From contig JACNJW010000040.1 in assembly GCA_014382365.1 (NCBI GenBank), positions 15,589-79,588 of the forward strand: 64,000 nucleotides of DNA, in the 5' to 3' direction. The DNA comes from SAR324 cluster bacterium. GTDB lineage: Bacteria > SAR324 > NAC60-12. The translations under genes and the position numbers were made by a program. The notes beneath the pieces are model-generated. The model ran no database searches. It saw nothing but the letters and a program-made list of their open reading frames with translations, and was not told the DNA's origin. Position 1 is the stretch's first letter; every line of letters begins with the position of its first letter. Of this stretch, positions 218 to 34,985 are shown in pieces.

Positions 218-2296
218 CTAAAAAAATATACCAAATCCTAATAATACTCGTGTAAGATTTTTTGCACTGGACCAGCGCTCATTAACTGTTGAACGCTGAT
301 TCGGATTTACGGGAATACTAGACTCCTGATAACTGTCTTTATAATAAAAATAAATTGTTGGCTGCAGTGCAAATTGAAAGTAGTAATTTTCCAGGCCCTG
401 CCAACCAGCATCAAGAACTGCAAACAGTCCGTATGCTTTTGCTGAATGCAGATAATCTGTAGCTGTTGAATTAAAGTCCTCCGACTCACCGGAAATGCTG
501 GCAGTTGCACTGGCATCTTTCCCCTGATACTTCAAAGTTGCATAACCGAGACCACCTCCTGCTCCGTAATAAAAACCCTCTGTAATTCCCCAGACAATCG
601 ACTCATCGACAAACCAGCGGTAAGTTGCTGATAATATTGACCGGTTGATTTCCAACGAGTTTCCGGATCCACTTTTTGCAATACTTTGCATTGCAGTACT
701 CTCTTCAGTCAAACGAAGTGCCTTAAAAGTATTGCCAATCTGCGGCCCTGTCAGTTCAAGAGCATAATGTAATTGCACATTATGATCTAGATTATAATCA
801 TAAAAAGTAACAAGACCATTCAATCCCGAAAATGATAGTCCTATTCCAAGTCCACGATACTCAGAAATACGCCAGTCGGAGGCCTTCCGGATTTTATCAG
901 CTTTTGATTCTGCCGTTTTCAGACTGATATCAAGATTGTCTGTTTTTTCTGCAGTGGATAAAACCTGTTTATTATATTGTTCAATAGAAAAATTTTCTAA
1001 GCCTGCTTTTATCTTACTTTTAATTATTTTCTTCTTCTTTTTCCCACCCGGATCCTGTATTGAAACACTTGCTATAGGCCCCTTTAATCTACGCTCTGCA
1101 TCATCCTGAAACCAGAATTTTTGTTGTGTGAAAACCAAAAAGTGACTTGCATCTGGAGGTATCACTGTACTTTCAGGAAACTTATAACTTAATTTCCGGC
1201 CTGCTTCACCTGCAGACTTTACCTGCAGGTCCTGATCCATTTTTGATAATGTTGAAACTTGAATTTCTTTTTCAGTCAATCCATCTCTAAATTTATTAAT
1301 TTCAAACTGAGTAATTGCTGCAACACTTTCCAAACGAGATAATTCATCTTTACCCCAAAAAAATAAATAATGACTGGAATCCGATTCTTCTTCAGGTCTG
1401 ATAAAAGAGATAGTACCAGCAATCATCCCTAAATCAGCAGGTTCTTTTTTAAAGAACATATTTTGTGTCTGCTCCTGTTCATGCTGTATTTCACTCTCAA
1501 GTTCTGTTGAAACTCCTTGACTCATTTGTCCTTCTGCATTTCTACTGAAGACAAGCAGATGAGTTGCTTCCGGAGGTAACAACATGTCTATTTCATGCTG
1601 CAATGGGGTTAACTGCCAGGGTGCTTGAAGTTGAGTACTCAGACTGCTGAACCAGTAACGCTTTTCAATCACTAATACCGGAGAATGTGCCCTTAAAACG
1701 GTGTCATTGCTACTGCCCCAGTATACAGTATAATGACTCACATCACGCTCATCCCAGGCACGTGTAATTTTAATTACACCCTTAACACGGTTGCCTTCTT
1801 TTGCAGTTTGTTCAAAAACAATAGCCTGGGGTTTACTCTGGGGTACTCCTTTATCAACCAGACTAAGACTGTATTTTTCCGTCTCTTCTCCATTTTGATA
1901 ACGGACATAAAGCAAAAAGTGAGTAGCACCTTGAGGAATTCTAGTATCTTTAAACTGAATTTTCATCCGGCTTCCAGACTCAGCTACAGGCAAAACTACA
2001 ATTGGCAGGAACATACCCAGGCGCTGATGGGGATTATTTCCCCAATACAAAACATATTTTTCTACTTGTTCAGATTTTTTTGCAGAAACAATCTCATCTG
2101 TAACTGTAAAAATCAAATCACCTCTGAGCCAACCTCCTCTTGAATCGTTGTCAGAAAATTCCAAAACTCCATTTACAGCTGCAGCTACAACTCCGTGAAA
2201 AAACACTAGCACAAACAGCAGGATTATTTTTATTTTCCAGGAAAGTACTGTTCTACGTTCCCGCTTTCTCCTATGATCAGGAGCAGTGAAAAACAT
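218..2296 (-). CDS. Outer-membrane beta-barrel protein (~693 aa from Met31; the ORF-track start at 2386 gives 722 aa). The signal peptide is MFFTAPDHRRKRERRTVLSWKIKIILLFVLVFFHGVVAAA. Three tandem ~95-aa beta-rich modules share the signature sHY-V-YWG ... P-ATHhLVF. A poly-Lys linker (GGKKKKKIIKSKIK) follows, then a ~270-aa C-terminal domain with alternating hydrophobic residues that ends ...LLGFGIFF (terminal Phe).
   Basis: ORF 218..2386 (-). The internal Met at 2294-2296 gives a canonical signal peptide and removes the 86-nt overlap with the giant-gene stop at 2301-2303. A C-terminal aromatic or Phe residue is the classical OMP beta-barrel signature. The repeated modules were seen by self-comparison of the translation. 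It is co-directional and contiguous with the giant gene. Confidence 0.7.
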   Translation of the reverse strand: MFFTAPDHRRKRERRTVLSWKIKIILLFVLVFFHGVVAAAVNGVLEFSDNDSRGGWLRGDLIFTVTDEIVSAKKSEQVEKYVLYWGNNPHQRLGMFLPIVVLPVAESGSRMKIQFKDTRIPQGATHFLLYVRYQNGEETEKYSLSLVDKGVPQSKPQAIVFEQTAKEGNRVKGVIKITRAWDERDVSHYTVYWGSSNDTVLRAHSPVLVIEKRYWFSSLSTQLQAPWQLTPLQHEIDMLLPPEATHLLVFSRNAEGQMSQGVSTELESEIQHEQEQTQNMFFKKEPADLGMIAGTISFIRPEEESDSSHYLFFWGKDELSRLESVAAITQFEINKFRDGLTEKEIQVSTLSKMDQDLQVKSAGEAGRKLSYKFPESTVIPPDASHFLVFTQQKFWFQDDAERRLKGPIASVSIQDPGGKKKKKIIKSKIKAGLENFSIEQYNKQVLSTAEKTDNLDISLKTAESKADKIRKASDWRISEYRGLGIGLSFSGLNGLVTFYDYNLDHNVQLHYALELTGPQIGNTFKALRLTEESTAMQSIAKSGSGNSLEINRSILSATYRWFVDESIVWGITEGFYYGAGGGLGYATLKYQGKDASATASISGESEDFNSTATDYLHSAKAYGLFAVLDAGWQGLENYYFQFALQPTIYFYYKDSYQESSIPVNPNQRSTVNERWSSAKNLTRVLLGFGIFF

Positions 2297-2300: not shown

Positions 2301-5300
2301 CTAAAATGCAGGAGGTTCTGCAAACGAAAGACTAGTCGGGACTCCGCTGATGCTGAGGCGCACCCAATAGCCCTGACCTTTCTCAACAGAACTGAACGTA
2401 CTGTAGCCTTTTGTAGTCAATTCCAGAGCAACTGATGTTTTTGGAGAATATGCCAGCCACTTGCTGCTCGCATCATCCCATTTCCAAATAGAGTGAACCC
2501 GGTCATACGATCCAGAATAGTCAAAAGTTGAAGATGTTGAATCACCCTGCGGCGGTGCACATGCTACAACCAGCGTTATCAATGCTGCAATTGGAATCAA
2601 TTGCCAGACAGGAATCCTATGCAGCTTATGTTGTGCAAGAGAGGTGCTTTTAAGCTGTACTTGTCTACGGTACACCATCAAACTAACCGAAGTTAACAGC
2701 AGCACAACCAGCAAAAGCATAGTTCTGGAATTTTGCCCGAGTTCATTTGCCGCAACTAGATAATCATTACCAACATAATTTAATCCGGACGGCGGCCCAT
2801 TTCCTCCGGAATTATCTAAAAGTCCCAAAGTATTGGATTCATCTTCTGACGTTTGATCAAAATTTGCGGCCTGTGTTATTTCTGCAACAGAAATCTTTTT
2901 TGCAGTTCCGGCCAAATTCCATTCTGAGTTCATGCTGCTCAATTGTGGTAAAGCAGTATAGCCTCCATAATTTGCAACTTCGAAATTTGCGGGATTGACC
3001 GGTGAATTCAGTTCAATCCAAAATCCTTCTCCGGCCTCAATCGTTGAGTTTAATTCAGTATAACCTTTGTCTGTATAAACAGTTTTGTTATCACTGCTGG
3101 TATAAAACTGCCATGCACCACTCCGGCGCACCCAGACAGCTTTGTAAGAACTGAATTGACTTTCAAAACTGGCAGGAGCTATTGATGTATAAGCCGGTAG
3201 CGAAACCAGATTACGGGAACCGCTCATTGTTATTGAAGCAGGAATGCTGCTGACAGATACAGTTCCGCTCAGAGCAGATGGAAGTGCATCACCAATCCTC
3301 AGTTCTGCAGTTCCTGAAGTTAAGCTCACATTAGTTGTATTGTCATAAGCGTTTTCCAGCACGAGAGTTGCTCCAGAAGATGCCGACTGGACATAAACCG
3401 GTTTTCCTGATGTTGTGTCAACACCAATCCACTGTCCGCTTGTCGCATATTCAGAAGATACACCACTACGTTGAGATGTCCGGAGTGAAAAACTACGTTT
3501 GGAGATATTTCGCGAACTGCCAGAAGTTGTCAACGGAATAGTTACAACCAGTTTTCCGGATTCCTGACTGACAGTTCCGCCGGCACCTACTCCAGGAAAA
3601 ATCTGCTTTGCATTCGTTGAAACAGTGGTAATTGTCGGTATCATCAAACCTTCACTATTCATACTCACACTGCTGCTCATACTGGAACTTGGTGCAAATG
3701 TAGAAGTTATATTACGGTTTTTGCTAAGTAAAATTGTCGAACCAGTTGCTGCCTGAAGGGTGCTCTCGGAAACACCTGTACCCTGCACTTGAATTGCATT
3801 ATTTGTACTGCTGGTGGTACTTATGATGGTACGGCTCACGCCGTCATTACCTGTTTCTGCAGAGGAAGTGCTGACAACTTTTCCGCTCTTGATCTGCAAA
3901 TCCATACTGGTTGAGGATGTGAATGTAGTTTTGCTTGCACCGCTGTCAAAACTTGTCGATGAGGTGCCGTCGTTCAAAAGACTGGCTGCAAGAGTTCCTT
4001 CCGTAACCGACATGCTGGCGGCAACTCCGCTGCTGGTATCAATTGCGACTGTCAAACCTGCATCTGTACTTATACTTGACTTACTAGACTCTGAACTGTC
4101 TGCATTTGTTGTCCTGCCAGTACCTCCGCTCAGTGTTATCTCAGTTAAAGTAGAACCGTCCGGACTGAGCGTACTGACAACCTGAGAAGTTACACCACTG
4201 GTAGCGTCAGTAGATGCAGGCAGAGAGATGCTTGAAGTACCGTCACTTCCGATACTAACTTCAGAGCCCTTGGGCGCTTTGACATTTGCACCTGTACTTC
4301 CGGAGCTAACACCGACTGTCATTTCTCCTTCTGTGCTGATGTTGGTTGACAAAGTCGCACCGCTGTTCAGAGTCATTGCAACACTAACTGATGCATCTTT
4401 ATTCATATTAACTTCTGCACCAAGCGGTACATTGACTTTAGATTCAGTACCGTCCTTAGTTTTAATTTTACTGACAACAGTACCGTCTGTATTCATATCT
4501 AGATTCAATTCAGTTGTTCCTGTGGCCAATTTAAGTGTTTTTGAACCATCTGAATTTGTGGTTTCTGCATCCAGTGTTATATCTTTTGGATATTTCGGTT
4601 TTATTGAACCCACAGCACTTCCTATTGCTGTAACTTCCTTGACCGGTACAATCGTAACTGAAGTTGAACCATAAGATGCGGTTTTATCATCATCGATCAC
4701 TTCCAGTCCAAATAAAATAACAGTTGTATCCTCAATATCCGGAGCAGAAAAATATGCAATACTCTCGTTTTCACGTTTTACTGTAACATCTGTACGCTGA
4801 CCTACATATTTCCACTTGTAAGAAACAATACGTCCGGTTGGATCAGGGTCATAAGAAGCAGAACCATCCAGAATTACTCTTGTCTGTTCATTAACTTTTT
4901 GATCAGCACCTATTTGCACTATTGGACTCAAACCTTTTTGCAGATCATCGTTGATGTTAGTAAAAGTATATTTGAAAGCATGCTGTCTACTATCTGAAGT
5001 TGAGGAATAATTCGTGTCCGTTGATTCCGTATAGCCTACTATTCGTACTCTGACGTCATCATCTACAACTGAATCATCTTCACCGGTAATTATCAGAGTT
5101 TGAGTCTTGTTCCATGTACTTGGACTAAAAGACATTGTGTATTTGTCAAGGGTAGCTTCTGATAAATCAGAACTGTTCAAAACAACCTGCACATCACTGA
5201 CAGGACGGCTGAGTAGTTTAACCGACATAGTCGCCGTTTTTCGTTCGCCTTCAGACTCGGAAAGCATCCAGTTGGCACTGACAACGTTTCTGTACAGACC

Positions 5301-8300
5301 ATGTGCATTAAATCCATATGCACCGGTTTCTGTGAATCCGCTACAATTATCTTCACAATCAACTCCGCCGGCAGTACTGATAGTGCCTACTGTTCCAGTG
5401 GTGGTGGATAATGTAATATAAGAAATTTTGCTGTTATCAGTCATACTCAAATTAGGTTCACCATCAATTTCAAGCAACGCGATTTCGTTTCCATCAACTG
5501 AAGTCAACAGTGTATTATCAAGCATCATCAAAGCATTTCCGCTGAATTTTGATGTTTGAGCATGTGCTAGTTTAAGCGTACCACCGGTGCTGGTCAGTAT
5601 TCCATCACTAATGCTTAAAGCACTCAACAGTATCAAGTCCGCATCAGCAGTAGAAATTCCTTCTAAACTTGAATCGATGATGACAGCATTTTCCACTGTA
5701 AGGTCACTGGTTGCACTTCCCAATGTCAAAGTGAAATCATTCAGATTTAAATTTACAAAATTTGAGGCTTCATCACTGGTCAAGGTACTGCTGGCTGCAA
5801 GTTTCAAATCAGTTTGTGAAATAGTAAGAACTCCACTCGATTTGATAAAATCAGCACCTAGAACCCAGGTGCTTCCACTAAGATCCAATTTACCTGTTCC
5901 TGAAAGCTGACCTCCACCCAATGTAGAAATGTCTCCTCCTGTAGATGTTATGCCACCATCACTGATGTTCAGTGCAGCAAGGAAACTTATGTCGGCATCT
6001 CCTGAAATCAACCACTCGTCGGCATTGTCGAAAGTCATTGCAGATGTTACAGACAAATCTGTACTTGCTGAACCTAGAGTCAATGTCAAATCATTCAGTT
6101 GCAGCTGGTTAAAAGCAAGTGCTGTATCACTGCTTAAAGCTATACTATTCAACAAATTCAGCATTGCAGATGAACCGTCAAAATTACCACCGCTTTTCGT
6201 ATAATCTGCACTGAGACTGAGAGTACTTGCTCCTAAGTCAAATTCAAATGTTCCGGACTGAGTACCTCCATTGCGGAAAAGCAGTGTGCCTCCAGTTGAG
6301 CTTAATTTCCCATCTGCAAGTGTCACATTACCCTCAACAGTCAAATCTGCATCTCCTGTCTTCAATAATCCATTTGCTGTTGTTAAAGCCAAGTTTCCAC
6401 TGAGAGTTAAATCACTTGATTCCGAACCCAGTGTGAGCGTATTTGCACCTAACTCAATTGTATTAACGGAAAGTAAGTTGTTGTTGGTTATTTTTAAACT
6501 ACTGAGTACTGTTAAAGATGAATCTGAGGTTTCCAGAGTTCCACCTGTTTTAAACAAATCTGCATTTAAATTCAGCAAACTATTGCTGATATTCAACAAC
6601 CCTCCAGTTTGAGATACTCCACCATTAAATATTAAGGTGCCCCCTGTTGAGTCAAGCCCTCCGTTAGCTACACTCAGTAATCCTTGAAGCTTCAAATCTG
6701 CTGAATTTGTACGTATTTGCTCATCTGCAGAATCCAATGTTGTTGGATCACTAACCGTCAAATCAGTTGTCTCAGAGCCGAGTGTAAGTGTTTTATCATT
6801 CAAAGTAAGTGTTTTCACTGAAAGAGATGTATTGCTCGTAAACGTAAGTCTCTCAGTTAATTCCAGCGTTGTTCCAGCTTCAGTTGCAGTCAGAGTTCCG
6901 GCTGATTTAAGAAAATCTGCACCCAGTTTAAATGTACTGTCTGTCAGATCCAGACTTCCTCCGGATTGCTCTCCACCTTTTGCAAATGAAATAATTCCTT
7001 TAGTTGAAGAAATAAGTCCATCCTGCATGACAAAACCACCCTGCAGGTTTAAATCTGCAGGACCTGTTACGAGTTGTGCATTTGAATCATCAAACGTAAT
7101 GTTATCTGAAACAGTCAAATCACTACTTTCAGTCAGCAAAGTTAGGAGCTTGTTATTTAATACAAGCGATTGTGTCTCAACTGCTGTATCGCTTGAATAA
7201 TTTGTATTTTCACTCAAACTCCAGGAAACATTGTCGAGTGACATTGCACCACCTGTTTTTGTCAAAGCCCCTTGAGTTTCCCATTGATTATTCTCAAATA
7301 CCAGAGTAGCACCTGCATCAACTTTTATTTGCGCATTATTCCATTTGCTACTGGAGGACTGAAATGTTACAGATTCTTGTGCATCCAGCAAATTGTTTTC
7401 AGAATAATCAAAATTTCCGCTGACTTTTGTTCCTGCAGAATTTAATACAAATTGACTTTCATCTTCAAATGTTACAGTTCCGCCAAAAGTCAACTGACCG
7501 CTGTCTCCGGATACTGTCAGCACTTTTTGGCTGGGTACTGAAAAAGAGTTCGGCGTATTTAGCTCAGTCAATACAGACAATTCAAGATTTATATTACCTT
7601 TTTGATCAAGTTGCTCTACTACTATTTTTGCAGAGCTTTGCAATATACTGTCGTCTCCTTCACAGCTAGAATCTGCACTCACATCAACAACCAACACTTT
7701 GTCGTTTTCTACAAGGCCATCACTTGGATCAATGCCAAGATGTGAGAGTGTAGTTGCATCATCTGCAAGTTTTAGAATTCCGCCATCCTTATTCAGGCGG
7801 ATTGAATTATTATCCCAACTCGAAAAACGTCCTCCACCCTGCAAGGCGAGACTCAGGTCATTAACTTCGAGTGGGATACTACCCTCATAAGTCAAAACTT
7901 TATCCGGTGCAATAAAAATTGTGGAATTAGTAAGATGTTGAATTTTGCCGTTAATTGTAACGTTTTCAGTGACGCACATTACTCCGCCGTTTAAATTAAT
8001 GTTGGCAGTCATTGACCTGTTGAAATTCATGGTCCCGCTTACATTAAAAGTCAGTCCTCCTCCAACATCGAAAACGGTGCTGCCAGTCATTACTATTTGA
8101 TCTTTAAAATTGATATCTATCTCGTTCTCAACCTTCACATTTACATCCTGCAGCGTTAAAATGACGTCGTTCGGCTGAGTCACTTCTGTTACCAAGAGCC
8201 AGCCTCCGTTGCCGTCACCCATTATTTTTGCAGTAGAATAGACGTTTAAATTTTCAACATTCAGTTCAAACGACTCGTTAGTGAAGCTCAAACCCACGTC

Positions 8301-11300
8301 TGCCAATAAGTTCAGATTGGTAATTTTTGCATTAGCACTTTCAACACGTATTCCCTTTCCAGCCGTACTGTTTGCAGTTACTTCAATGAGAGCGATTGTA
8401 ATGTCATCTGCAAAAACCAGCAAACTGTCTGTACTACTGAGCAGAATCGAATTCGAATTCAATAAAGTTCCGCTTCCCAGCAATGTCAGTTGAAAAGTTG
8501 TGATGTCAATACTGAGACCTGAGTACTCCAGATTCACTCCCTGTGCTACATCTACAGAAGAATTACCGGAAATTAGAATGTCTGAAGCAATTTTAGTTTT
8601 GTAGTCCACATCCAGTAAACTTCCTTCTATCAATTCAAGTTTGCCATTTATCATGTTGTGATACGGCGTACCGGAACTGATAGTAGGAGCACTGAATTGA
8701 AGTGTGCCTGCCAGTTTCAGCGTGTCAGTTATACTGAGAGTACCGCCGTCTGAACCAAGAATTTCCAGTTTGTGGTCCTGCGGGATTTCAAATGTTTTTG
8801 TCAGACTTAATTGTTTGCCGTTGGCCAAATCCATGCTTGCATTGTCGGCAAGTGAAAGTTGAGTTGAAATCGTTACGTTTTCATCTACATCCAACAGACC
8901 ATTGTTGAAAATCAGTGTGCCGTTATTAAGCGTATTGTTGGTTGCATTCAGTTTCAGTGTCCCAGAAAGTGTCAGCTTATCGCTGATGTTAAGAATTCCA
9001 CCACCGGAACCTTGTAATTCCAACACCTTATTCATTGGAACTTCTACGCTGTCTGTCAGCGTTAAACTAATTGAGTTAGCAATATCTATTCTTGTTGATT
9101 TTACTGGCGATATTGTATTGATGGTAACGTTTTGTATCACATCAATAGATCCTTCAATCAAGTCTTCCGCAACAGCAACTTTTTCAACTTTCGCTATTCC
9201 ATCAAGTTTCAAGACACTTGCTGCATTATTAAGAGACAGCTCAGTTGAATTATTGAAACTCCCTCCTCCTGACATTGTCAAAGTGAGTGCACCGATTTCT
9301 AAATCACTTCCGAAATAACTCAGTATTTTGTCCGCGGAAACATCTATCGTGGAATTTAATAGATGTGTAATGTCTGAAGAAACTGTTGTGTTTTCAGAAC
9401 TTGTCAATGTACCTCCGTTCAGGGCCAGAGTTCCGTTATCTAGAGAAGAATCAGGTGCGTTAAACTTAATTTCACCTGACAAAGTCAACGTATCGCTTAT
9501 GCCCAGCGAGCCACTGCCGGAACCAATCAGTTCCATGGTTGTTGCTTCCGGAATCTCAAAAGTATTCTCTAAGGTCAAGCGGACTCCAGAAGCAATGTCC
9601 AGACGGGAGGAAACGTTTTGCGTTAAAGTCTCGATAAGTGAGTCACCAGTCACACTCAATTTTCCAGTTGACAATTCTTCAGGAAAAGAGACCCTGGAGA
9701 CTTCAACTCCATTCAACACCAGAACGCTGAGAGGGTCATCAAGAGCAATATCTTTTATGTTTTCGATCTTACCTTCTCCGGATAGAGTTAAGGCTAATGC
9801 GCCCACATTTGGAGAGTCTCCGGTATATTTCAGAGTTTTGTCAGCAAACACACTAATCGCTGAATCCATCAAATGAGTAATCTTAGAGTTGATAATTGCA
9901 TTCTCAGAAATTGACAGAGTTCCACCGTTGAGCGCTAATGTACCGTCAGACAAAGTATCTGGAGCACTGAATTTAAGTATTCCGGAAAGAGTCAGTTGAT
10001 CTCCCAAAACCAGGGTTCCATTATCAGCACCAACAAGCTCCATTGATTTATTTTGTGGTACTTCAAACAAATTCTGCACAGTCAGCGTGGTATCATTTGA
10101 GATATCAAAGCGTGAAGAACCTGTGTGCGACAGAGTCTGAATGAGAGTGTCATTGTCAACACTGAGCATTCCACTGGTTAATTCTCCGGTCACTGCAACT
10201 TTTGAAATTTGATTGATTCCTTTCAAGACCAATTGACTCGATGCATCATTCAAAGTGATTGCATTTTCATTTGTTATGGTTCCGCTTCCGGAAAGTGTCA
10301 GTGTAAAGGCACCTATTTTAGGTGTGTTTCCGGAATATGTTAATGTTTTGTCTGCAGCCACTGCAATGCTGCTGCTGCTCAACTGAGTTATTGTTGCTGC
10401 GATATTTGTATTCTCTAACACATCTAGCAGACCACCGTTAAGTCCAAGAACTCCGCTGGTGAGCGAATAACCGGCTGAACTTATTTTAAGATTTCCGGAA
10501 AGTTTAAGTGCATCAGGCAAATATATTGTCCTTCCTGCTCCGGAACCCAATAGTTCCATGAATTTTCCTGCTGGAATTTCAAACGGATTTGTCAGAGTCA
10601 GGTTATTTCCTTCATCAAGCTCAATACTGAACGATGCAGATTGTGTCAGTGAATCGATTGTAGAGTTTTCAGCAACATTTATCACCCCATCACTCAACTC
10701 AGTTTTAACAGCAACTTTTGAAATTTTGATTCCATCCAACTGGAGTTTGCTTTGAGCATGATTGAGACTGAGATTATTTGTATTATTGAAAGTCCCGCCG
10801 CCTGAAAATATTAATTTAAAGGCTTCAAGATTAAATTCCTGACCTGTGTAATTTATCGATTTACCCGTAGCAATTTCAATTGTAGCATTTGCACTATGAA
10901 CCATATTTGATTCGATTGTCAGATTTTCATCTACATCAAATTTTCCCCCACTCAGGAAAACCGTGCCGCCGCTTAAGACTCCGGATACGGGAAACTTAAG
11001 CGTGCCGCTGAGAGTCAAATTATCACCAATAGCAAGGGTTCCACCTGCACCGACAAACTGCATGACCTTTGTTTGAGGGATTTCAAAACCATTGGAAATA
11101 CTCAGGGTTTTTCCTGATAAAATATCTACAACTGATGATCCTGAATGCAGCAGGTTTTGGACTCCTGCATTATTTACAACCTCAAGTTTTCCCGTAGTGA
11201 GTGTAAGCGGAACCGAAACATTTGCGACAGCAGATATTCCATCCAACTTCAGGATGCTTACCGGATCATCTAAAACCAGCTGATCCTGATTGGCAAAAGT

Positions 11301-14300
11301 ACCTCCGCCGGAAAGAGTCAAAGTTTTTGCTCCAATTTTAAAATCACCACCGGAATGCGTTAAGGTTGCACCGGAAGAAATATTAACTGTAGAATCTGCA
11401 TTGTGAGTAATTATGGCTGAGATTGCAACGTCATCATTCACGCTTAATTTACCACCGTTGAGAACAATTGTCCCGTTGTCAAGTGTCTGTGGGACTGCAA
11501 ATTCCATGGTTCCGGAAACAGTTAGTGTATCCTCCAATTCCAGCACACCATTACTACCGGTTAAATTCATCTTTCTCTCAGCCGGCACTGACAAATCACC
11601 CTGAAGAGTCAAACGTTTACCGGAGGCAATCTCAAACGTTGATGCTGCAGGATGTGTGATTGAAGAGGAGATTGTTGAATCTTTTTTGACAGAAACAATT
11701 CCACTATCAAAGGCCAGTGTTCCGCCTTCAAGCCTACTCTCTTCATCCATTTGCAGTGTCCCGTTCAGAGTAAGTGTATTTTCCAGCTTCAAGCTGCCAC
11801 CAGAACCATTGAGCAGCATTGTTTTGTTACTGCTCACACTGAAATCTTCCTTGATGCTTAGGGTCTTTCCGGATGAAATATTAATTATCGATTCACCTGT
11901 ATGCGTGAGACTTTGAATTAACGTATTTTCTGAAACATTCAATTTGCCCGTCTGCAGTGACACAGGAAAAGAAACTTTGCTGACTTCTGTAATTCCAGCC
12001 AGGTTCAAAACACTGGCTACGTCATTGAATTTCAAATCTGCGCTATTGGCGAATTTACCTCCGCCGGATAGTGTAAGTGCAAACCCGCCGATATCCATTG
12101 CGCTGCCGGAATAAGTCAGAACTTTCCCGCTGGAGACATTAACTTCGGAACTAGCTTTGTGCAGCAATGTCGATAAAATGCCTGCATTTTCAACAACCTC
12201 TAGAGTACCTCCGCTGAGTGACAACGTACCGTCCTTGACAGTATCGGCTGCACTCACTTTCAGAGTGCCTTTAAGCGTCAACTTTTCATTCAAACTCAAA
12301 GTTCCGCCTCCGGATCCAGATAATTCCAGCGACTTCGCTTGTGGAATTTCTAAAGCATTTTTTAGCATCAATGTCTTTGCATTGGCAATCTCAATCATTG
12401 AAGAACCGGAATGAGACAAGGATTCTATAATCGAGTCCTGAACAATTTCCAGTTTGCCTGATGTTAAAACTGCTGAGACTGAAACTTTATTAACTTTTGC
12501 AATTCCATTAAATTTCAAAGAACTTGAAGGATCATTGAGTGTTATATTTGTTGTATTCGCAAAATTTCCACTGCCGGAAAGTATCAGCGTTTGTGCTCCA
12601 AGATTAAATTCATTTCCGGAATAATTTAGTGTTTTTCCGTCTGCCACTACAATGCTGGAATCCGCTTGCTGAGCCAGATCAGAGATAAAGTTTATGTCTT
12701 CATAAACTTGCAATGTCCCACCATTGAGAGTCACGGTTCCGCCAGACAAAGTCGTGTTTGCTATTGGTAAATTAAGCGTACCGGAAAGTGTCATGTTATC
12801 ACCCAGCGTCAGAGTCCCGGCTGCACCTGAAATCTTCAGTTCTTTTTCAGTCGGAACTTCAAAAGCCTCAGTAATACTCAATGTTTTGCCACTCACATAA
12901 TTTATTTCTGAAAATCCTGTGTGTGCTAAATTGTTGATGACACCACTACCAGTCATTTTTAAAACTGGTGCATTTAAGTTGTCTCCTGAGCTTGTTTTCA
13001 CGTGGCTGACAGTAGAGGCTCCTGCACCGGAAAACTCAAGTCCTCCATCGGCGTTATTTAAGGTTAATGGGTTGCTGCCGTCAGTGTTTAACAGCAGAGA
13101 CCCGCCGCCGGATATGGACAATATGCTGTCATTTAAGTTAAGTGCCGCTCCTTCATATGTTAAGCTGGCTCCATCAACTATCTTAAGATTGGATGACGCA
13201 TTTAATGAGATCGAAGAAGAACTGCTGATTGTCATATCACCGTCAATCCGTAAAGTTCCACCGTTCAAGACAATATTACCTTCAAGCCAACCGTCAATAC
13301 AGAACTCACCGCCTGTATTTATACTTACACCGCCGGGAAGTTTTAATTGTCCTTTAGGTTCAACCGGTAGAGATTGTGGACAGGAAATTCCGACAGAAAT
13401 AAGTTCATCAACCTTGAGTTTTGTTGTACTGCCCAATGTCAGCATTGGTTGAACATTTTCCGCAATCGTTACATTTGCTATCAACTGTTCTGCATTGGTG
13501 GTCAAAGTGGAGTCCCTAAGCAAATGGAAATTAGTAGTTACATCTGTCTGCAATACTCCTCCAGTTAAATTGAAATCTCCCCCTAAATTCAACAAAACCC
13601 CTTTTGCGTCAACCGTCAAACTTCCCGAAGTAAGTATCACATCTCCATTTAGAGTGAAGTTTTCATTTAGTTCCAGCATTCCTGAGCCTGACAATTCCAT
13701 ACCCTGTGTTGGTACAGTCAGGGACTCGGTGATACTAAAAGTTTTTTCGGAAGCAACAGAAAGTCTAAGCTTTTCTGTCAAATTCAAATTGCTCAGAGTA
13801 GCATCTGAAATCACGTCCAACCCTTTGTTTGAGCCACTGGCTGCTGAAACTGAGACATAACCGACAACCACATTATCCAGCACCAAATGGCTGTTTGAGT
13901 TATTCAGGCTCAAGGCAGAGGCAGCAGTATTAATGAAATTTCCGCCACCCTGAATATTCAGTTTTGAAGTGCTGAGATCAACGGTTGTTCCCGAGTAAGT
14001 CAGGGTTTGTGATGAATTGATATTTATTGTTGAATCTGCACTTTGTACCAGATTATCAACTAGAACTGTACTTTGTTCTATCGACAAATTACCGCCGTTC
14101 AAGGCAATATCACCCGAAATTTGCTGACCTTGCCCAACCAACGCACTGCCGGGTTCCAGGTTTAATCCTCCTGCAAAATCAAAAGATCCACCACCGTTAC
14201 TGAGTTTTTGTGTGTTGTCGACTGTTACAGGACTCGTTACTCGAACAGTAACATTTTCTGTTCCCAGACTTAATTCAGCTCCGCCTGTCAAAGCAAGAGT

Positions 14301-17300
14301 TCCGCTGTTGACATCCTTATTACTCGAAAAAGTCAGTGCTGCTGCTGCCGTAATATTTCCAAGTGCTACAGGTGTATCTGAGGTTACGGAAAAGCTGTCA
14401 CTGAGGTAGAGGTTCTCCACAATGTTTCCTGTAGCGGAAACATCACTGTCAGTAATGTTCAATCCGACTGCTGTAGCAGCCGTACTGACTGAGAGGAGAG
14501 AAATTATAGTACTATCACTTATCGAGAGCTTACTGCCTGAATCATCCAGTTCCAGCTTGCTCGTGTTGGCAAAAGTACCTCCGCCTGAAAGCTTAAACTC
14601 ATGATCACCAACACCAATTTCACTACCGGAATATGTAAGTGTTTTTCCAGATGCAATTGTTAATTCAATACCTTTATGATCTACAGCCTGCAGCAAAGAT
14701 CCTGAAAAAGTCAGGGATTGTTGCACATCCAACTTGCCTCCAACAGTTCCGGCACCGAATGCATCACCCTTCATTGTGACATTTGCGGCCAAAGTTCCAC
14801 TGTTATTGAGTTGAAGATTTCCATTTGAAAATACTTCAATTTCGCCGCTAAGACTCTGATTTTCTGAAATTGAAACCGGAATGAGATGACCAACTGTTAA
14901 TTCATTCACTGTTGATTCGTTTTCTACAACAAGACCAAGGCTGTCAGCGCTCGTTCTGACATAGTTTGCGGTAACTGCTGATAATTTAAGTTGACTTGCT
15001 GCATTGTCTAATTCAAGCGGATTGGTGTTACTGTAACTTCCTCCGCCACCAATACTTAAGGCAAAAGGGCCTACCTTGATAGTTGCACCTTCGTAGGTCA
15101 GCGTTTTCGTTTCTGCAATTTCGATAGTAGATGCAGCCAGATGTTCGATTGATGAATTAAGTGTCGTGCTGCTTTCAATGGCCAGCAAACCACCGTTAAG
15201 TTTTATTTTGGCTGTTCCAGTATCGAGATCTTTAGTCAGCCGTAAAACTGCACCGGAATCAATACTGACTCCGCCAGTCAGTATCAGGGACGTTGAGTCC
15301 TGCACAATACGTCCGTTGGGATTATTAAGAGTTAATTCCTCACTCAACGTAAATGAACTCGACTGACCAGCAAGCGATAGCACATTATTATTCAGCGTGA
15401 CCGCTTTAAAAGAAAGTGCTGAATCGCTGGAGAAGGTCACATCGTCAGTCAACTCCAGGGAGGAATTACTGCTTGTTAAGCTACCTCCTGTTTTAGTTAA
15501 GTTTCCACCAGTTTGAATTGCAGCAGCATCAACTGTTAACTCACCTCCGGACTGACCGAATGTACCAACCAAAATTAGTGTAGATCCGCTACTCAGTGAA
15601 ATTAACCCATTTGCTGAAAGTGAACTTCCGCCGCTAAGAGTTAGTGTCCCACCGGACGCATAGACTTTTGCAGTGCTGAATTCTGCAGCACCCGTCCATG
15701 TCAAATCAGCCTCCTGAATTTTAAAAGTTCCTGCGGATTCGCCTTCAGTCGGAGCTGAGTTATTGATGGTTAAGTCTGTCGTAGCAGAACCTAGAGTCAG
15801 TGAATTTCCTGCCAAATTTACTGAACCAAGCGTAAACAGCGAATCTCTACTGATAGTTGTATCTGCAGTTAATTTCAGCACAGTACCATTGCTTGTTGCT
15901 ACATCATCCAGCGTCAAACTACCTGCCGTTTCCAATCTTCCATTTGACAGGTTTAACCAGTTTGCACCACTCAAGCCAGTACTGCCGTTGGTTTGCAGTA
16001 AACCGCTAAACACCAGATTTGCAGTTTGCAAAGCAAGTGTTGAGTTTTTGCTGTTCACAGTTCCGGAAACTGAACCGCCTTTTTGAAAAGTCAGCCTTCC
16101 GCCGGAAGGTTCAAGGATTCCAGCAATAGTCGCAGTTTCAGCAAAGCTCAAATCTGCGCCACTCATTTGCAGAGTCGAACCATTGTTTAAAGTGAATGCT
16201 TTTTTAAGTGTGAGATCTGCGCCTTCTGTTGCTGTGACTGTCAGGTTCCGGTTATTCATTTCCAGAGTTCCAAAACTTAACGCCCTGTTACTGCTAATAG
16301 TCACGTCGTTGATTAGATTCAACTCAGAAGTTTCTGCAAGAGTTAATGTTCCGCCAGTAATGCTGATGTTATCACTTAATTTGAGCTCCCCGCCTTGAAT
16401 ATCAATTGTACCTGCTGAACCCAAGTTAACTGTTGAGCCGAAAGAGATGACGCCGCTTTGTGAGGACAGCTTTCCTGCAACAAGTTCCAGCTGGTTGTTC
16501 AGCGTTAAGTCTGATGCTCCAGTCAGTAGTTGTTCTCCGGAAGCATCGAGAGTAAATGGATCATTGATGGTTGTTGCCATTGTAATGCTCAACGCAGAAC
16601 CGTTGAGGTCAAGTGTGCCAAATTTAGTGGCAAGTGAGTTGCCAAGAGTCGAATCTGTCTGCAAAGTCAAAGAGGTGGCATCATCTGTAACTGTACCACC
16701 GAGATCCAAATCTCCACCTAAAATTAGTTTTCCGCCGGAAAGATTAAGTTCACGTGTGTTACGCGAAATCGTGCTTCCTGCGTCTGTGGACAATGTTCCG
16801 GCAATTGCTAAATTACTCCGCAGCGCCAGTTCCGTTCCAGGAAGTGAAATTTCAGAAGTGCTGTCAACTGAACCACCCAGTTTCAGCGTACCACCAGTAG
16901 AATCAAGTACAGAGTTCGCAGCAAGTGTGAGTGTTCCCTGCAGATTTAAATCTGCATCACCGGTATGTAAAGTTACAGCACTGAGGTTGAGTGGATCAAG
17001 CAGCTTCAAGTCTGAGGTTGAGCTGCCGAGGCTAAGTATTTTCCCGTTGTGCTCTAAAGCCTTAAACGTTTTTTCTCCATTGAAAGTCAGAATCACATCA
17101 TCCAACAAATCCAGTATAGAAGTATCATTTGTGGTCAGTGTTCCACTATCAGCAGCAAGATCCGCATTCAATTTCAGTGTGGTTCCACTTACATCAAGTG
17201 TTGCGTTTGTTCCCAGTGTACCACCTTGTGTAAGTGTGAAAGTTCCTCCGCTTGAAGTTATTTTTCCGGCATTCAGCTCCAAAGGATAGGGCAGACTTAA

Positions 17301-20300
17301 ATCCGCCTGATTTGTAGTTAGTTTTGAACCTGAATTGTCCAGCTTCAGAATAGACTGAATCGTCAGGTCAGTGGTCTCTGAACCAAGCGTAAGTTCGAAG
17401 TTGTTCAGATCCAGTCCACCAATTATCATTGCAGATGAAGTGGAGATATTTGTATCTGCATTTAGTTTCAATGCAGTATTGCTGTCAGTCTGTATTTTAC
17501 TGAAATCACTATAAGTACCACCGAATTCAAGGGTGCCGCCTGTCAAAGTAATTTTTGAGGAGCCGACACTAAAGGCAGTGTCTTTCAATCGCAATGTACT
17601 ACTGTTTGACATTGCAACATCTGCCGCAAGAGTCAAAGTCGAGTTAAACAGTTTCAATTCACCCCCGCTAATTTGTGCTGCGGAATTGAAAGCAACTGAG
17701 CCTCCTGTCATAAGTATACCGGCATCGTCCAAAGCCACACTTCCATTGAATATGAGTGCTCCTGCACTCGATTCGAGTTTCCCGTTATTGTTTAGACTAA
17801 GCGCATCATTAAGCGTCATACTGCCGGATTGAGTGTTGATGGATTCGTCGGATCCGACTGTAAGCAGATTACTCAACGTTAGATGGGTTGAAGAAGTATT
17901 CAGGGTCAGCCCTTGTCCGTTCAAGTCCAGCGTCGGAATAGTAAATACAGCATTGCTGGAAAAACTTGATGCGGTTTGGAGTTCGAGTTTGGAGGAATTG
18001 TTTGTGTTTAGGGTGCCGTCGGCAACATCCAGAGTTCCAGACAATTTCACTGTGCTGCCTGAAAAATCAAAAACAGCACCGTTTCCAAATACTGCGCCCT
18101 GCTGTAGTGTCAAAATCCCTGAGGTGGAACTCAGTTTCCCGTCTGCCAGTGCCAGTGCAGACTGAAGCGTGATGTCTGCTCCTCCGGTTAACATTTGTGA
18201 AGCAGTGGTATCAAAAGTTAATGCTCCAGTAACTGTCATGTCACTGGTCTCTGAAGCGAGGGAAAGTGCTTTATTTTGCAAATCGATACTGCCCAGAGTA
18301 AACGGAGAACCACGTGAGAGAGTTGCATCCGCGGAAAGTAGTAGAGCTGTGTTTGTACCGGTGATGACTCCATCCAGCGACAAACCTGTCCCTAATTCCA
18401 ATTTAACATTCGTTCCGGATAAATCGACGCTGCTGCCGTTTAACTGCAGAGTTGGATCATTTCCGCTGGTTGTCAGTTTGTCGCCAATTGTTAAATCTCC
18501 ACCCAAAACCAGTGTCGCGCTTTCAAGCGTTAATTCATCTACTGAACCACCGTCTGCAAAATCCAGGGTTCCGTTGCTGACCTTAAGTTCACCGTCTTGA
18601 ACATTTATCGAGTTTTGAAACTTCAAACTTCCGTTACCTCTCAATGACAATATCTTTTCGTTCAACGAAAAATCACCGCCCTGCTGAATTATTAAAGTAG
18701 AGTTTGGAGCGACGTTCATTTCTGAATCTGCCGAAAGACTTAGCGTGCCAGTCAAATTCTTATCATTGGCAACACTGAATTTCCCTCCGGCAAGTTCCAT
18801 TCCGCCTGTATATTCTCCACTTCCCGAAATTTTAAGTTCGCTATTATTGTTTAATTTTATCTGACCGTCGATCGTTTTATTTGCTGCGATGTCAAGAATG
18901 GTGGTTGCGGTCATTTCGAAGTTACCCAAAGTCACGGACTCTGTAACCTGAACTCCTTTTCCGGAATTTGCAACAGATGTTGACTTCACATTTCCAACTG
19001 TGTTGATTCCAGCCAAGACAAGCAGACTATCCGCATGATCCAGTTCAAGCACATTTGAATTGTTGAAAATCCCTCCGCCGCTCATAGTCAGTTTGTTTGC
19101 ACCAAGCTTCAAGGATGCTCCGGAATAATTCAGTGTTTTTCCGGAAACGACTTCAATGTTAGCATCATCAAATATGCCTATATCACCCGATATTGTCGGA
19201 GAACCACTTGCTTTTAGCGTGCAACCTTCCAGTCTGATTGCTCCGGAAATTATTCCATTTCCTGTTAAATCCAGCACACTTTCCTCAACAACCAATACTA
19301 TTGGGCTGTTTACAGCATTACTGAACGTACCTGCGCCTCCAATCGTCAGGGTGTAGTCCTGAACAGTCAGGTTCCCTCCTGAATAGCTCAGCGTTGTACC
19401 TGCATCCGGAATTAAAACTGTGACATTGTCTGCAACATTTATTGTTCCGGAAACCATGAGACTCGTTCCTGCTTCCAGCGTTCCTTCAAGATTCAGTGTG
19501 CTGCCAAAAGTGCCTGCACCGCTGAGTTTGAGACTAGTGTTTTGCGCAACATCTGTTGATCCGGAGAGAGTTTTTCCGGCTGCAATATTCAATTCTGTAT
19601 CTGCCGCAATATTCAGCTTACTGATTGTTCCGGAATCATCTATCAGAATACCTTTGCCCTCATTACTCGCCGTAGAAACTTTCGCAGACTGTAATGTACC
19701 GGTTCCATTCAGTTTTAGTAGACCGTCCGAGTTATTTAAAACGATGCCGGACGCATTTTCTGGAAAAGCAACAATTCCGGCGCCTTCAAGCGTCAACTGA
19801 TAACTTCCTGTCTTTATCTCACCGGAACCAAAAGTAAGAGTTTTTCCGGAGTCCACATCAATTGAGATGTCTCCGGATTGTGTCAATGCACCTGAAATTG
19901 TTAGCGATTCATTTGCATCCAGCGTTCCGCCGCTCATCAAAACATTTGCTGCTAAAGTACCGCTATTGCTAAACTGCAATGTTCCTCCGGTATTCACGAC
20001 AATGTTTCCGGAGAGGCTTTTGCTTGAAGTAATAGAAACAGGAAGGAGATTACTGACTGTAAGACTTGAAACCGTTGAGTTATTTTCTATTTCCATTCCA
20101 AGACTGTCTGCGGAAGAAATTACATTTGCGATACTGATTCCGGAAAGTTTTAATTTGCCGTTTGTGCCAAGATTGAGCGCATTCGTGTTCTGCAGTTGTC
20201 CAATACCTGAAAATGAAAGCTCATTTCCAAGCATAATTTCTGCGCCAGAATAATTTAGAATGCTTCCGCTGTTGAATTTAATTGCTGAATCTGCTGTCAG

Positions 20301-34977: not shown

Positions 34978-34985
34978 AGTTTGCC

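What the first reader, a model, noticed from the sequence alone, without database searches (positions are those of the whole stretch)
2304..3152. Unusual C-terminal anchor of the giant protein: two hydrophobic segments around a basic patch, and a duplicated Trp-rich domain on both sides
Within the last ~285 aa there are, in order:
- a ~50-aa W-rich module (VWVRRSGAWQFY...GEGFWIELNS);
- a spacer containing GNGPPSG;
- a strongly hydrophobic helix (MLLLVVLLLTSVSLMVY) followed at once by YRRQ...K...HKLHR;
- a second hydrophobic stretch ending in a lipobox-like LVVAC;
- a second copy of the W-rich module (IWKWDDASSKWLAY...GQGYWVRLSIS) that runs to the stop codon.

A hydrophobic helix followed by a basic cluster is the hallmark of C-terminal sorting signals (LPXTG, PEP-CTERM and GlyGly-CTERM types). 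In this protein it is followed by a sequence that on its own reads exactly like a lipoprotein signal peptide plus a small domain homologous to the one before the anchor.

Three readings are possible. It may be a genuine novel anchoring device, for example a TM hairpin with the same small domain on both faces of a membrane. It may be a sorting signal whose cleavage releases a small lipoprotein-like fragment. Or an originally separate small lipoprotein gene may have fused in-frame by mutation or sequencing error. All three readings are interesting for how a 9479-aa fibre is tethered.
Basis: seen in the sequence. Interest (0 to 1): 0.58.

Follow-up and report, generated by a model that had tools for sequence, protein, structure and literature searches.

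The report
Lipoprotein signal splitting giant protein's tail
The last 320 residues of a 9,479-residue secreted protein from a marine SAR324 bacterium carry a conserved membrane hairpin whose second helix looks exactly like a lipoprotein signal peptide and sits in the middle of a small beta-domain, which suggests an undescribed way of tethering a giant fibre through a cleaved-off, lipid-anchored piece of itself.

Summary
The giant ORF (window 2301-30740, minus strand) has only three hydrophobic segments: an N-terminal signal peptide and two near the C-terminus. The second ends in LVVA|C, and homologous Trp-rich modules flank the pair.

It is not a fusion error. Fifteen SAR324 genome loci, more than 20 metagenomic fragments and three tails at about 30% identity keep one open frame through the whole cassette.

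The loop between the helices is always basic and the flanks are acidic. Both modules therefore lie on the same, periplasmic side, not on opposite faces.

No C-terminal sorting-signal family matches, and 122 residues follow TM1.

The Cys is invariant and has no conserved partner Cys. It sits in a lipobox like those of this organism's own lipoproteins and is followed by a variable Ser/Thr/Pro linker. lspA is in the window.

New point: the modules belong to an unnamed unit of about 85 aa that normally occurs as tandem pairs. The second unit is split. Its first strand and helix (SEWNLAG...NFDQ) lie before TM1 and the rest lies after the Cys.

Best reading, with cleavage inferred and untested: Lgt and LspA turn the last 86 residues into a lipoprotein that stays bound to the giant chain by strand complementation. 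This would be a new variant of known parts.

The parts
30651..30740 (-). N-terminal Sec-type signal peptide of the giant protein (aa 1-~30, MLKLNKILQPRYLLVLLVLGGGALFTMLQA|TS)
   Evidence: The only hydrophobic segment outside the tail. It places the bulk of the protein outside the cytoplasm. The cleavage site is inferred.
2961..3245 (-). Unit 1 (aa 9166-9260): a complete ~85-aa 'NLVSLP ... VWVRR..W.FY ... GEGFWIEL ... NFEVANYGG' module
   Evidence: Matches positions 2-72 of an HMM built from 9 units of unrelated proteins, 36.7 bits. AF2 pLDDT is 57-80, with element order strand-helix-strand-strand-helix-strand.
2853..2960 (-). N-terminal part of unit 2 (aa 9261-9296, YTALPQLSSMNSEWNLAGTAKKISVAEITQAANFDQ): first strand and helix of the interrupted domain
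   Evidence: Aligns to HMM positions 5-25. Joining it to the C-part raises the score from 30.4 to 38.3 bits; 3 of 1820 control windows and 0 of 1000 shuffles reach that value. MAFFT aligns the 'KGWNL' of five uninterrupted family members onto it. Mean pairwise identity is 0.82, the same as the C-part.
2724..2852 (-). Acidic, Gly/Pro-rich linker (aa 9297-9339; TSEDESNTLG..GGNGPPSG..)
   Evidence: Net acidic: 5-9 D/E against 0-2 K/R in the 40 aa before TM1 in all orthologues. pLDDT below 50.
2670..2723 (-). TM1 (aa 9340-9357), predicted stop-transfer helix running from outside to inside
   Evidence: KD peak 2.05. Helical in both AF2 models. Hydrophobic character is conserved while the sequence is 61% identical.
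2616..2669 (-). Basic cytoplasmic loop (aa 9358-9375, RRQVQLKSTSLAQHKLHR)
   Evidence: In 34 unique orthologous variants the loop has 3-8 K/R and 0-1 D/E, with sequence identity of only 35%. This fits the positive-inside rule.
2562..2615 (-). TM2 (aa 9376-9393): re-entrant segment with the properties of the h-region of a type II (lipoprotein) signal peptide, ending in the lipobox L-V-V-A
   Evidence: The PROSITE-type lipobox core matches in 34 of 34 SAR324 variants and in 5 of 6 distant tails. The hydrophobic core is about 13 residues and has a Gly in at least 90% of orthologues. The AF2 helix ends exactly at A9393.
2559..2561 (-). Cys9394 (TGT): predicted diacylglyceryl acceptor and +1 residue of the LspA cleavage site
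   Evidence: Invariant in every orthologue down to ~30% identity. The five residues CAPPQ are 97% identical whereas TM2 is 51%. No conserved partner Cys exists. Lipidation and cleavage are inferred.
2502..2558 (-). Post-Cys Ser/Thr-rich tether (aa 9395-9413, APPQGDSTSSTFDYSGSYD)
   Evidence: In distant orthologues it is replaced by low-complexity S/T/P/E linkers of 20-90 aa. It resembles the tether of the window's own lipoprotein at 49380-50948, 'LLFVAC|SEKDDSSSS'.
2304..2501 (-). C-terminal part of unit 2 (aa 9414-9479, RVHSIWKWDD...GQGYWVRLS...SLSFAEPPAF), running to the stop codon
   Evidence: Matches HMM positions 33-72 only. In every hairpin-bearing orthologue it starts at HMM position 32-34. 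pLDDT is 67-82. Together with the N-part it is the best-conserved portion of the tail.
218..2296 (-). Downstream partner gene: signal peptide, at least 3 internal repeats and a C-terminal barrel-like domain ending GFGIFF. It starts 5 nt after the giant's stop codon.
   Evidence: Lies directly downstream in 14 SAR324 loci and, at 30% identity (E 4e-80), downstream of the distant tail P0059. No Pfam or NCBIfam hit. Its functional link to the tail is inferred from synteny only.
61713..62237 (+). lspA (signal peptidase II), the enzyme the model requires
   Evidence: Pfam Peptidase_A8, E 1.2e-33. It is a housekeeping gene and is not claimed to be dedicated to this substrate.

Best explanation
The giant protein ends in a canonical tandem pair of ~85-aa 'GWNL...WxW...GxGYW' beta-units. 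A 117-residue membrane cassette has been inserted into the loop between the first helix and the second strand of the second unit.

Proposed sequence of events:
1. After Sec export of the 9,300-residue body, TM1 stops transfer.
2. The Arg/Lys-rich loop stays in the cytoplasm.
3. TM2 re-initiates export in the N-in/C-out orientation.
4. Both pieces of unit 2 therefore end up on the periplasmic side, on flexible linkers of about 43 and 20 residues, and can reassemble into one domain.
5. TM2 is in all respects a type II signal peptide. The most likely next step is that Lgt lipidates Cys9394 and LspA cuts between A9393 and C9394.
6. The last 86 residues then become a separate lipoprotein that remains attached to the giant chain by strand complementation. 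The giant chain itself keeps the TM1-loop-TM2 hairpin.

Shown here: the architecture, its conservation, the topology signals, the lipobox, and the split of the unit at sequence level.

Inferred: lipidation and cleavage, reassembly of the two halves, and what the two-chain tether is used for. Possible uses are a hand-over of the lipoprotein half to the outer membrane by Lol, or a mechanical break-point.
For: Conservation
- The frame is open through the cassette in 15 genome loci, 22 fragments and the distant tails P0058, P0059, P0063, P0057, P0047 and P0044.

Topology
- The loop has 3-8 K/R and 0-1 D/E in 34 of 34 variants, and the flanks are acidic.
- An N-terminal signal peptide is present.

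Lipobox
- The Cys is invariant, and CAPPQ is 97% identical next to a TM2 that is 51% identical.
- The PROSITE-type core is met in 34 of 34 SAR324 variants.
- The distant tails have MLTSC, FMYAC, FAAC, IYAC and VVAC.
- The motif resembles the window's own lipoproteins LAVSC|, LFAGC| and LFVAC|SEKDDSSSS.
- A variable low-complexity tether follows the Cys.
- No conserved second Cys exists.
- lspA is present.

Split unit
- Unit 1 covers HMM positions 2-72, the C-part covers 33-72 only, and the N-part covers 5-25.
- Joining the two parts adds 7.9 bits; 3 of 1820 control windows and 0 of 1000 shuffles reach that score.
- MAFFT opens a gap of about 115 columns over the hairpin when uninterrupted units are added.
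- The spacing W...W is 27 residues after excision, the same as in P0050 (sequence shown).
- Every genuine unit that consists of the C-part alone among 144 representatives belongs to a hairpin orthologue.
- 104 of 129 family proteins carry exactly two units, and 106 have them in tandem.
- The N-part and the C-part evolve at the same slow rate, 0.82 mean identity each.

Structure prediction
- In the AF2 model without unit 1, the N-part has pLDDT 67-73, a strand WNLAG and a helix VAEITQAA. The C-part has pLDDT 67-82. The order of elements is the same as in unit 1.
Against: - No experiment or dedicated predictor (SignalP, LipoP, DeepTMHMM) could be run, so cleavage and acylation are inferred from sequence only.
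- No natural case of a lipoprotein signal peptide functioning 9,400 residues into a chain is known to me, and the literature search found none.
- The defining N-terminal position of type II signals is not met.
- One distant tail (P0063) has Thr at -1 (VVSTC), which is atypical for a lipobox.
- The N-part match is weak on its own (5.5 bits).
- The AF2 models are of low overall confidence (mean pLDDT 44 and 52). Contacts were not visible to me.
- The rise in confidence in the second model came after uninterrupted homologues were added to the alignment, so it is not independent evidence.
- No solved fold matches the unit.
Confidence: 0.5

Rival explanations
1. Uncleaved double-pass anchor. TM1 and TM2 simply form a helical hairpin that holds the assembled tandem units at the outer face of the inner membrane. 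The conserved Cys is not processed by Lgt/LspA; it could be structural, S-acylated without cleavage, or a metal or thiol ligand.
For: - The hairpin, the topology signals and the split unit are equally well explained.
- Type II signals are defined as N-terminal, and this one is not.
- The P0063 tail has Thr at -1.
- The uncharged stretch of TM2 is 17-18 residues, long enough for a membrane helix.
Against: - A lone, invariant Cys at exactly the outer end of the helix, always preceded by small residues at -1, is hard to explain otherwise. The adjacent helix is only 51% identical and no partner Cys is conserved.
- A variable S/T/P tether follows the Cys, as in genuine lipoproteins.
- The hydrophobic core is about 13 residues with a central Gly or Pro, which is more signal-like than TM-like.
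Confidence: 0.3
2. The small lipoprotein is made, at least in part, by internal translation initiation within the giant ORF (for example at the ATG/TTG about 39 codons before the Cys). It would then be an in-frame nested gene and not only a cleavage product.
For: - An ATG or TTG lies 36-40 codons before the Cys in the window and in all 14 orthologous loci examined.
- Several lineages also have a Met about 17-18 residues before the Cys, for example MFPKAGLAVMVALLFMYAC in P0059.
Against: - No Shine-Dalgarno-like motif precedes these codons in any locus.
- Neither Met is conserved across orthologues.
- Leu and Met codons are expected in a TM helix anyway.
- There is never a stop codon, so the full-length chain always contains the C-part.
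- From the ATG at -39 the Cys would be residue 40, outside the usual 15-35 range (counted on the sequence).
Confidence: 0.07
3. TM1 plus the basic patch is a classical C-terminal sorting signal (sortase, exosortase, rhombosortase or MYXO-CTERM type). A dedicated enzyme would remove it, and everything downstream would be discarded.
For: TM1 is followed at once by Arg/Lys, and a Gly-rich GGNGPxSG motif lies upstream.
Against: - 122 well-conserved residues follow TM1, and they are the best-conserved part of the tail.
- The GGNGPxSG motif lies about 25 residues from TM1 and is not kept in distant tails.
- NCBIfam, which holds the sorting-signal models, gives no hit at E<=1.
- No sortase, exosortase or rhomboid family appears among the 29 window ORFs scanned with Pfam.
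Confidence: 0.03
4. Assembly or sequencing artefact, or a recent accidental fusion of a separate lipoprotein gene.
For: None beyond the superficial look of 'signal peptide plus small domain' after a hydrophobic helix.
Against: - The arrangement is identical in 15 independent genomes (MAGs and single-cell genomes), in dozens of metagenomic contigs from several sources, and in two paralogues of a distant MAG.
- The post-TM2 piece is not a complete domain.
Confidence: 0.01

Closest known systems
Bacterial type II (lipoprotein) signal peptides processed by Lgt, LspA and Lnt (PROSITE PS51257 pattern)
   Same: A basic n-region, a short hydrophobic h-region with a helix breaker, the lipobox [LVI..][ASTVI..][GAS]-C, and a low-complexity tether after the Cys. 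The N-in/C-out orientation is also shared, and lspA is in the genome.
   Different: The signal sits at residue ~9376-9394 of a 9479-residue chain, behind a stop-transfer helix, instead of at the N-terminus. After cleavage the 'signal peptide' would stay attached to the giant protein rather than being a free peptide. Processing is untested.
C-terminal sorting and anchoring signals: LPXTG/sortase, PEP-CTERM/exosortase, GlyGly-CTERM/rhombosortase, MYXO-CTERM, archaeal PGF-CTERM, eukaryotic GPI signal (from established knowledge)
   Same: The purpose would be the same: giving the C-terminal end of a large secreted protein a membrane or lipid attachment. A hydrophobic helix is followed by basic residues.
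   Different: There is no signature motif next to the helix. The helix is not terminal. No family HMM matches and no sorting enzyme is in the window. Here the lipid would be on a separate fragment bound non-covalently, not on the new C-terminus.
Polyproteins split by an internal signal peptide, e.g. the Bradyrhizobium FbcH cytochrome b/c1 precursor (recalled from memory, not checked here)
   Same: One ORF, an internal N-in/C-out signal sequence after membrane helices, and cleavage by a signal peptidase on the outer face that gives two membrane-attached products which work together.
   Different: That case uses signal peptidase I and two complete, unrelated proteins. Here the signal is of the lipoprotein type, and the cut would fall inside one small domain.
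Cleaved-but-associated domains: the SEA domain of mucins and the GAIN domain of adhesion GPCRs (from established knowledge)
   Same: A very large extracellular chain would be tethered to a small membrane-attached fragment through a beta-strand that remains embedded in the domain after the chain is cut. It could serve as a mechanical break-point.
   Different: Those domains cut themselves by autoproteolysis and have no membrane hairpin between the two pieces. There is no sequence or fold relationship. This is an analogy of mechanism only.
Unnamed tandem 'GWNL...WxW...GxGYW' unit of secreted bacterial proteins (336 representative proteins at E<=1e-3; no Pfam or NCBIfam model)
   Same: Unit 1 is a full member. 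Unit 2 (N-part plus C-part) matches the same profile. The pairing of two units is the rule in the family.
   Different: Only the SAR324-type tails and their distant relatives have the second unit interrupted by a TM hairpin with a lipobox. In other members that loop is 20-45 residues long.

Membership tests
Type II (lipoprotein) signal peptide / Lgt-LspA substrate | Positively charged n-region on the cytoplasmic side | tested here: met
   The loop before TM2 has 3-8 K/R and 0-1 D/E in 34 of 34 variants. The distant tails are also basic.
Type II (lipoprotein) signal peptide / Lgt-LspA substrate | Short hydrophobic h-region (about 7-22 residues) | tested here: met
   The uncharged stretch is 14-22 residues, the strongly hydrophobic core is about 13, and a central Gly occurs in at least 90% of orthologues.
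Type II (lipoprotein) signal peptide / Lgt-LspA substrate | Lipobox: [LIVMFWSTAG](2)-[LIVMFYSTAGCQ]-[AGS]-C with an invariant Cys | tested here: met
   Met in 34 of 34 SAR324 variants and in 5 of 6 distant tails. P0063 has Thr at -1. The Cys is invariant throughout.
Type II (lipoprotein) signal peptide / Lgt-LspA substrate | Located at the N-terminus of the precursor (Cys within about residues 15-35) | tested here: not met
   The Cys is residue 9394 of 9479. Even from the nearest in-frame ATG it would be residue 40.
Type II (lipoprotein) signal peptide / Lgt-LspA substrate | Actual diacylglyceryl modification and globomycin-sensitive cleavage | not testable with these tools
   This needs labelling, mass spectrometry or inhibitor experiments. 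Only the presence of lspA in the window is shown.
C-terminal sorting signals (LPXTG, PEP-CTERM, GlyGly-CTERM, MYXO-CTERM) | Signature motif directly N-terminal of the helix, and a match to the family HMM | tested here: not met
   NCBIfam gives no family at E<=1 for the tail. Residues next to TM1 are poorly conserved and are deleted in P0021 and P0022.
C-terminal sorting signals (LPXTG, PEP-CTERM, GlyGly-CTERM, MYXO-CTERM) | Helix plus basic cluster at the extreme C-terminus | tested here: not met
   122 conserved residues follow TM1.
C-terminal sorting signals (LPXTG, PEP-CTERM, GlyGly-CTERM, MYXO-CTERM) | Cognate sorting enzyme encoded in the genome | tested here: inconclusive
   None was found among the 29 ORFs of the 64-kb window. 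The rest of the genome was not available.
Tandem 'GWNL...WxW...GxGYW' unit family (unnamed) | Full-length match to the unit profile built from unrelated members | tested here: met
   Unit 1 covers HMM positions 2-72 at 36.7 bits. Unit 2 with the insert excised covers positions 5-72 at 37.9-38.3 bits.
Tandem 'GWNL...WxW...GxGYW' unit family (unnamed) | Contiguous unit (loop between the first helix and the second strand of about 20-45 residues) | tested here: not met
   In unit 2 a 117-residue insert with two hydrophobic helices occupies this loop.
SEA / GAIN type cleaved domains | Autoproteolytic motif and the SEA or GAIN fold | tested here: not met

The most novel reading that the evidence does not exclude
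A lipoprotein signal peptide operates internally, 9,394 residues into a Sec substrate and inside a beta-domain. LspA would then convert one precursor into a giant fibre and an 86-residue lipoprotein that stay joined only by strand complementation. This would be a bacterial, enzyme-cut counterpart of SEA/GAIN tethers. It could let the Lol pathway carry the lipid-anchored half to the outer membrane, so that the pair bridges the periplasm, or it could act as a force-sensitive release point for the fibre.
Probability: 0.4. Interest if true: 0.8.

Novelty: new variant of a known kind. Interest (0 to 1): 0.62.

Why it matters
If the internal lipobox is used, the Lgt/LspA pathway accepts signals far from the N-terminus. 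Every current lipoprotein predictor, which scans only N-termini, would miss such substrates.

It would also give a concrete and testable answer to how a ~1-MDa fibre is held on a diderm cell: through a self-derived lipoprotein bound by a split domain. The system is conserved together with a barrel-protein gene, and it lies next to a MotA/MotB-like operon in SAR324, one of the most abundant bacterial lineages of the dark ocean.

The naturally split ~85-residue unit could also serve as a compact complementation pair for protein engineering.

Even if the Cys is not processed, a TM hairpin inserted into a loop of a small beta-domain is an unusual and well-conserved anchoring design.

Tried and rejected
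- **Pfam and NCBIfam on the tail, the 125-aa end, the last 999 aa and the downstream protein.** Nothing was found for the tail except a sub-threshold WWE match (17.9-20.2 bits against a cut-off of 21.1), judged to be chance.
- **AF2 of the 339-aa tail with orthologues only.** Mean pLDDT 44, and unit 2 was not modelled.
- **The afdb50 library.** Not available.
- **Profile search of PDB sequences.** One marginal hit to a cupredoxin domain of a multicopper oxidase (4kns, E 6e-4), not pursued and probably chance.
- **Word-indexed protein searches with module and tail profiles.** They returned almost only SAR324 orthologues. The distant tails came only from the exhaustive HMMER search.
- **Literature searches** for 'internal lipobox', for an internal signal peptide combined with signal peptidase II, and for SAR324 giant proteins. 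No precedent was found.
- **Internal start codon with a ribosome-binding site.** No SD-like motif in any of 15 loci. The downstream gene lacks one too, so this is weak negative evidence.
- **Disulfide explanation for the conserved Cys.** Rejected, because there is no conserved second Cys.
Full report
**1. The observation**

- The minus-strand ORF 2301..30740 encodes 9479 aa.
- A 19-residue hydropathy scan finds only three hydrophobic segments in the whole protein: the N-terminal signal peptide (aa 7-32), aa 9337-9359 and aa 9375-9399.
- The two modules are homologous. hhalign of their orthologue alignments gives probability 91.5%, E 8.6e-07. Each module's HMM detects only the other module in the giant protein and in the six-frame translation of the window.

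**2. It is not an artefact**

- A search with the last 299 aa returned 22 orthologous fragments at 46-79% identity, named SAR324 or 'Deltaproteobacteria' where named. All are open through both helices.
- A scan of one genome per species returned 15 SAR324-type loci. In every one a single frame runs through the cassette to the stop.
- An exhaustive HMMER search added tails at about 30% identity: P0058 and P0059 (two paralogues in one MAG), P0063, P0057, P0060 and P0047. They have the same order of elements.
- The Met of LMVYRRQ is not conserved, and no SD-like motif precedes any in-frame start codon.

**3. Topology**

- In 34 unique variants the loop between the helices has 3-8 Lys/Arg and at most one acidic residue, although its sequence is only 35% identical.
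- The 40 residues before TM1 carry 5-9 acidic and 0-2 basic residues.
- Together with the N-terminal signal peptide, this puts the loop in the cytoplasm and both flanks on the periplasmic side. The 'same domain on both faces' idea therefore does not hold.

**4. TM2 reads as a lipoprotein signal peptide**

- The Cys is invariant in all orthologues. CAPPQ is 97% identical, next to a helix that is 51% identical.
- The PROSITE-type lipobox core is satisfied in 34 of 34 SAR324 variants and in five of six distant tails (MLTSC, FMYAC, FAAC, IYAC, VVAC). P0063 has VVSTC.
- No second Cys is conserved, and Cys9394 is the only Cys in the last ~1000 residues.
- After the Cys comes a Ser/Thr-rich tether. 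In distant tails this expands to 20-90 residues of S/T/P/E.
- Predicted N-terminal lipoproteins in the same window look alike: FVLAVSC|AEVE, LLFAGC|SSK and LLFVAC|SEKDDSSSS.
- lspA lies at 61713-62237.
- By contrast, no C-terminal sorting-signal model matches. TM1 is 122 residues from the end. No sortase-like gene is in the window.

**5. The modules belong to a wider unit, and the second one is split**

- A Desulfobacterales protein (L016) and other hits (P0046, P0049-P0054) show a ~85-aa unit: '..L.kGWNLvg.p..(about 20 aa)..isvWkW...W..y.p....l..i.aGeGYWv....tltv.G'. It has no Pfam model.
- The exhaustive search finds 336 representative proteins at E<=1e-3. Of 129 analysed, 104 have exactly two units and 106 have them in tandem.
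- An HMM was built from nine non-SAR324 units:
  - Unit 1 of the giant covers positions 2-72 (36.7 bits).
  - The post-TM2 module covers only positions 33-72 (30.1 bits).
  - The conserved stretch MNSEWNLAGTAKKISVAEITQ, just before the acidic linker and TM1, covers positions 5-25.
- Joining the two pieces raises the score to 38.3 bits. This is reached by 3 of 1820 control windows from the giant and by 0 of 1000 shuffles.
- With the 117-residue insert excised, the Trp-to-Trp spacing is 27 residues, as in P0050.
- MAFFT, unprompted, aligns uninterrupted units onto SEWNLAG and onto SIWKW..GQGYW, with a gap of about 115 columns over the hairpin.
- In all hairpin-bearing tails the C-part starts at HMM position 32-34. 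Every other 'truncated' unit is either a contig-start fragment or a unit with a longer (40-45 aa) loop at that same site.
- The N-part and the C-part are equally and highly conserved (0.82 each), more so than unit 1 (0.76).

**6. Structure prediction**

- With orthologues only, AF2 modelled unit 1 (pLDDT 57-80; strand NLVSLP, helix, strands VWVRRSG and WQFYT, helix, strand FWIELN) but not unit 2.
- A second job omitted unit 1 and included five uninterrupted units in the alignment. It gave:
  - pLDDT 67-73 for the N-part (strand WNLAG, helix VAEITQAA);
  - pLDDT 67-82 for the C-part (strands VHSIWKWD, KWLAY and GYWVRL, and helix TSVALELTT);
  - a TM2 helix ending exactly at A9393.
- The order of elements mirrors unit 1. 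This is consistent with reassembly but is not independent of the alignment, and contacts were not visible to me.

**7. Context**

- A gene for a signal-peptide protein with internal repeats and a barrel-like C-terminus starts 5 nt after the giant's stop codon. It lies there in 14 SAR324 loci and, at 30% identity, after the distant tail P0059.
- Upstream on the same strand lie a predicted lipoprotein, a FecR-domain protein, a porin-like protein, a MotB_plug/OmpA protein, a MotA/ExbB protein and a protein with a weak MgtE_N match.

**8. Mechanism and rivals**

- Best-supported model (confidence about 0.85 for the architecture and about 0.5 including cleavage): Sec export, stop-transfer at TM1, re-insertion at TM2, reassembly of unit 2 on the periplasmic face, then Lgt/LspA processing at Cys9394. 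This yields an 86-residue lipoprotein held on the giant chain by strand complementation.
- Rivals:
  - the same hairpin without cleavage (0.3);
  - additional internal initiation (0.07);
  - a classical C-terminal sorting signal (0.03);
  - an artefact (0.01).
- What the two-chain tether is for is speculation. Candidates are Lol-mediated transfer of the lipid-anchored half to the outer membrane, so that the ~43- and ~20-residue linkers bridge the periplasm, or a mechanical release point.

**9. Comparison and novelty**

- The parts are known: a stop-transfer helix, a type II signal and a lipobox.
- Their placement is not known to me and was not found in the searched literature. It is internal, near the C-terminus of a giant Sec substrate, and inside a small domain.
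- It fails the positional criterion of lipoprotein signals and the criteria of the C-terminal sorting families. I therefore file it as a new variant of a known kind that works like a lipoprotein signal, not as a member of any sorting-signal family.

Noticed in passing
window 30926-39140 (minus strand): The six genes directly upstream of the giant gene look like one operon. They are a predicted lipoprotein (30926-32608), a FecR-domain protein, a porin-like protein, a MotB_plug+OmpA protein, a MotA/ExbB protein and a 543-aa protein with a weak MgtE_N (FliG-like) match. This suggests a stator-type motor linked to the giant surface protein.
   Followed up: partly
window 218-2296 (minus strand): The downstream gene starts 5 nt after the giant's stop codon. 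It has a signal peptide, at least three repeats of 'xYxLYWG ... (I/L)P..A(T/S)H(F/L)LV(F/Y)' and a ~220-aa barrel-like C-terminus ending GFGIFF. It has no Pfam or NCBIfam hit. Synteny is conserved in 14 SAR324 loci and, at 30% identity (E 4e-80), in a distant MAG.
   Followed up: partly
window 39456-41374 (plus strand): A second, divergently transcribed pair: an OmpA-family predicted lipoprotein (LLFAGC|SSK) and a MotA/ExbB-family protein.
   Followed up: no
window 61713-62237 and 62753-63592 (plus strand): lspA (signal peptidase II, Pfam E 1.2e-33) and an M48-family peptidase lie about 31 kb from the start of the giant gene. They are probably housekeeping genes.
   Followed up: no
P0057 (259-aa metagenomic fragment): In this variant of the tail, the loop between TM1 and the lipobox helix is about 130 residues long and contains a further hydrophobic or amphipathic stretch. 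Its topology is unclear.
   Followed up: no
L017 and L018 (MAG GCA_051382335.1); L009 and L010 (MAG ARS16): Two different hairpin/lipobox tails occur in the same assembly. The system may therefore be present as paralogous giant genes, or the bins may mix strains.
   Followed up: no
L016 3456-4427 (Desulfobacterales MAG) and 129 representative proteins: The ~85-aa 'GWNL...WxW...GxGYW' unit is widespread in secreted proteins, almost always as a tandem pair at either end of the protein, and has no Pfam model. It could be defined as a new domain family.
   Followed up: partly
window 2301-30740 (giant ORF as a whole): The protein has only 14 Cys in 9479 residues. The only Pfam domains found are one Laminin_G_3 near the N-terminus and one K319L-like PKD domain about 780-870 aa before the C-terminus. 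The rest is Leu/Ser/Thr/Gly/Asn-rich sequence with no family match.
   Followed up: no
L002 7388-10898 (SAR324 FRAM18_bin343): In this MAG the open frame ending in the tail extends only 1170 aa upstream before a stop. This may be an assembly or frameshift problem in the repetitive body of the gene, or a genuinely shorter gene.
   Followed up: no
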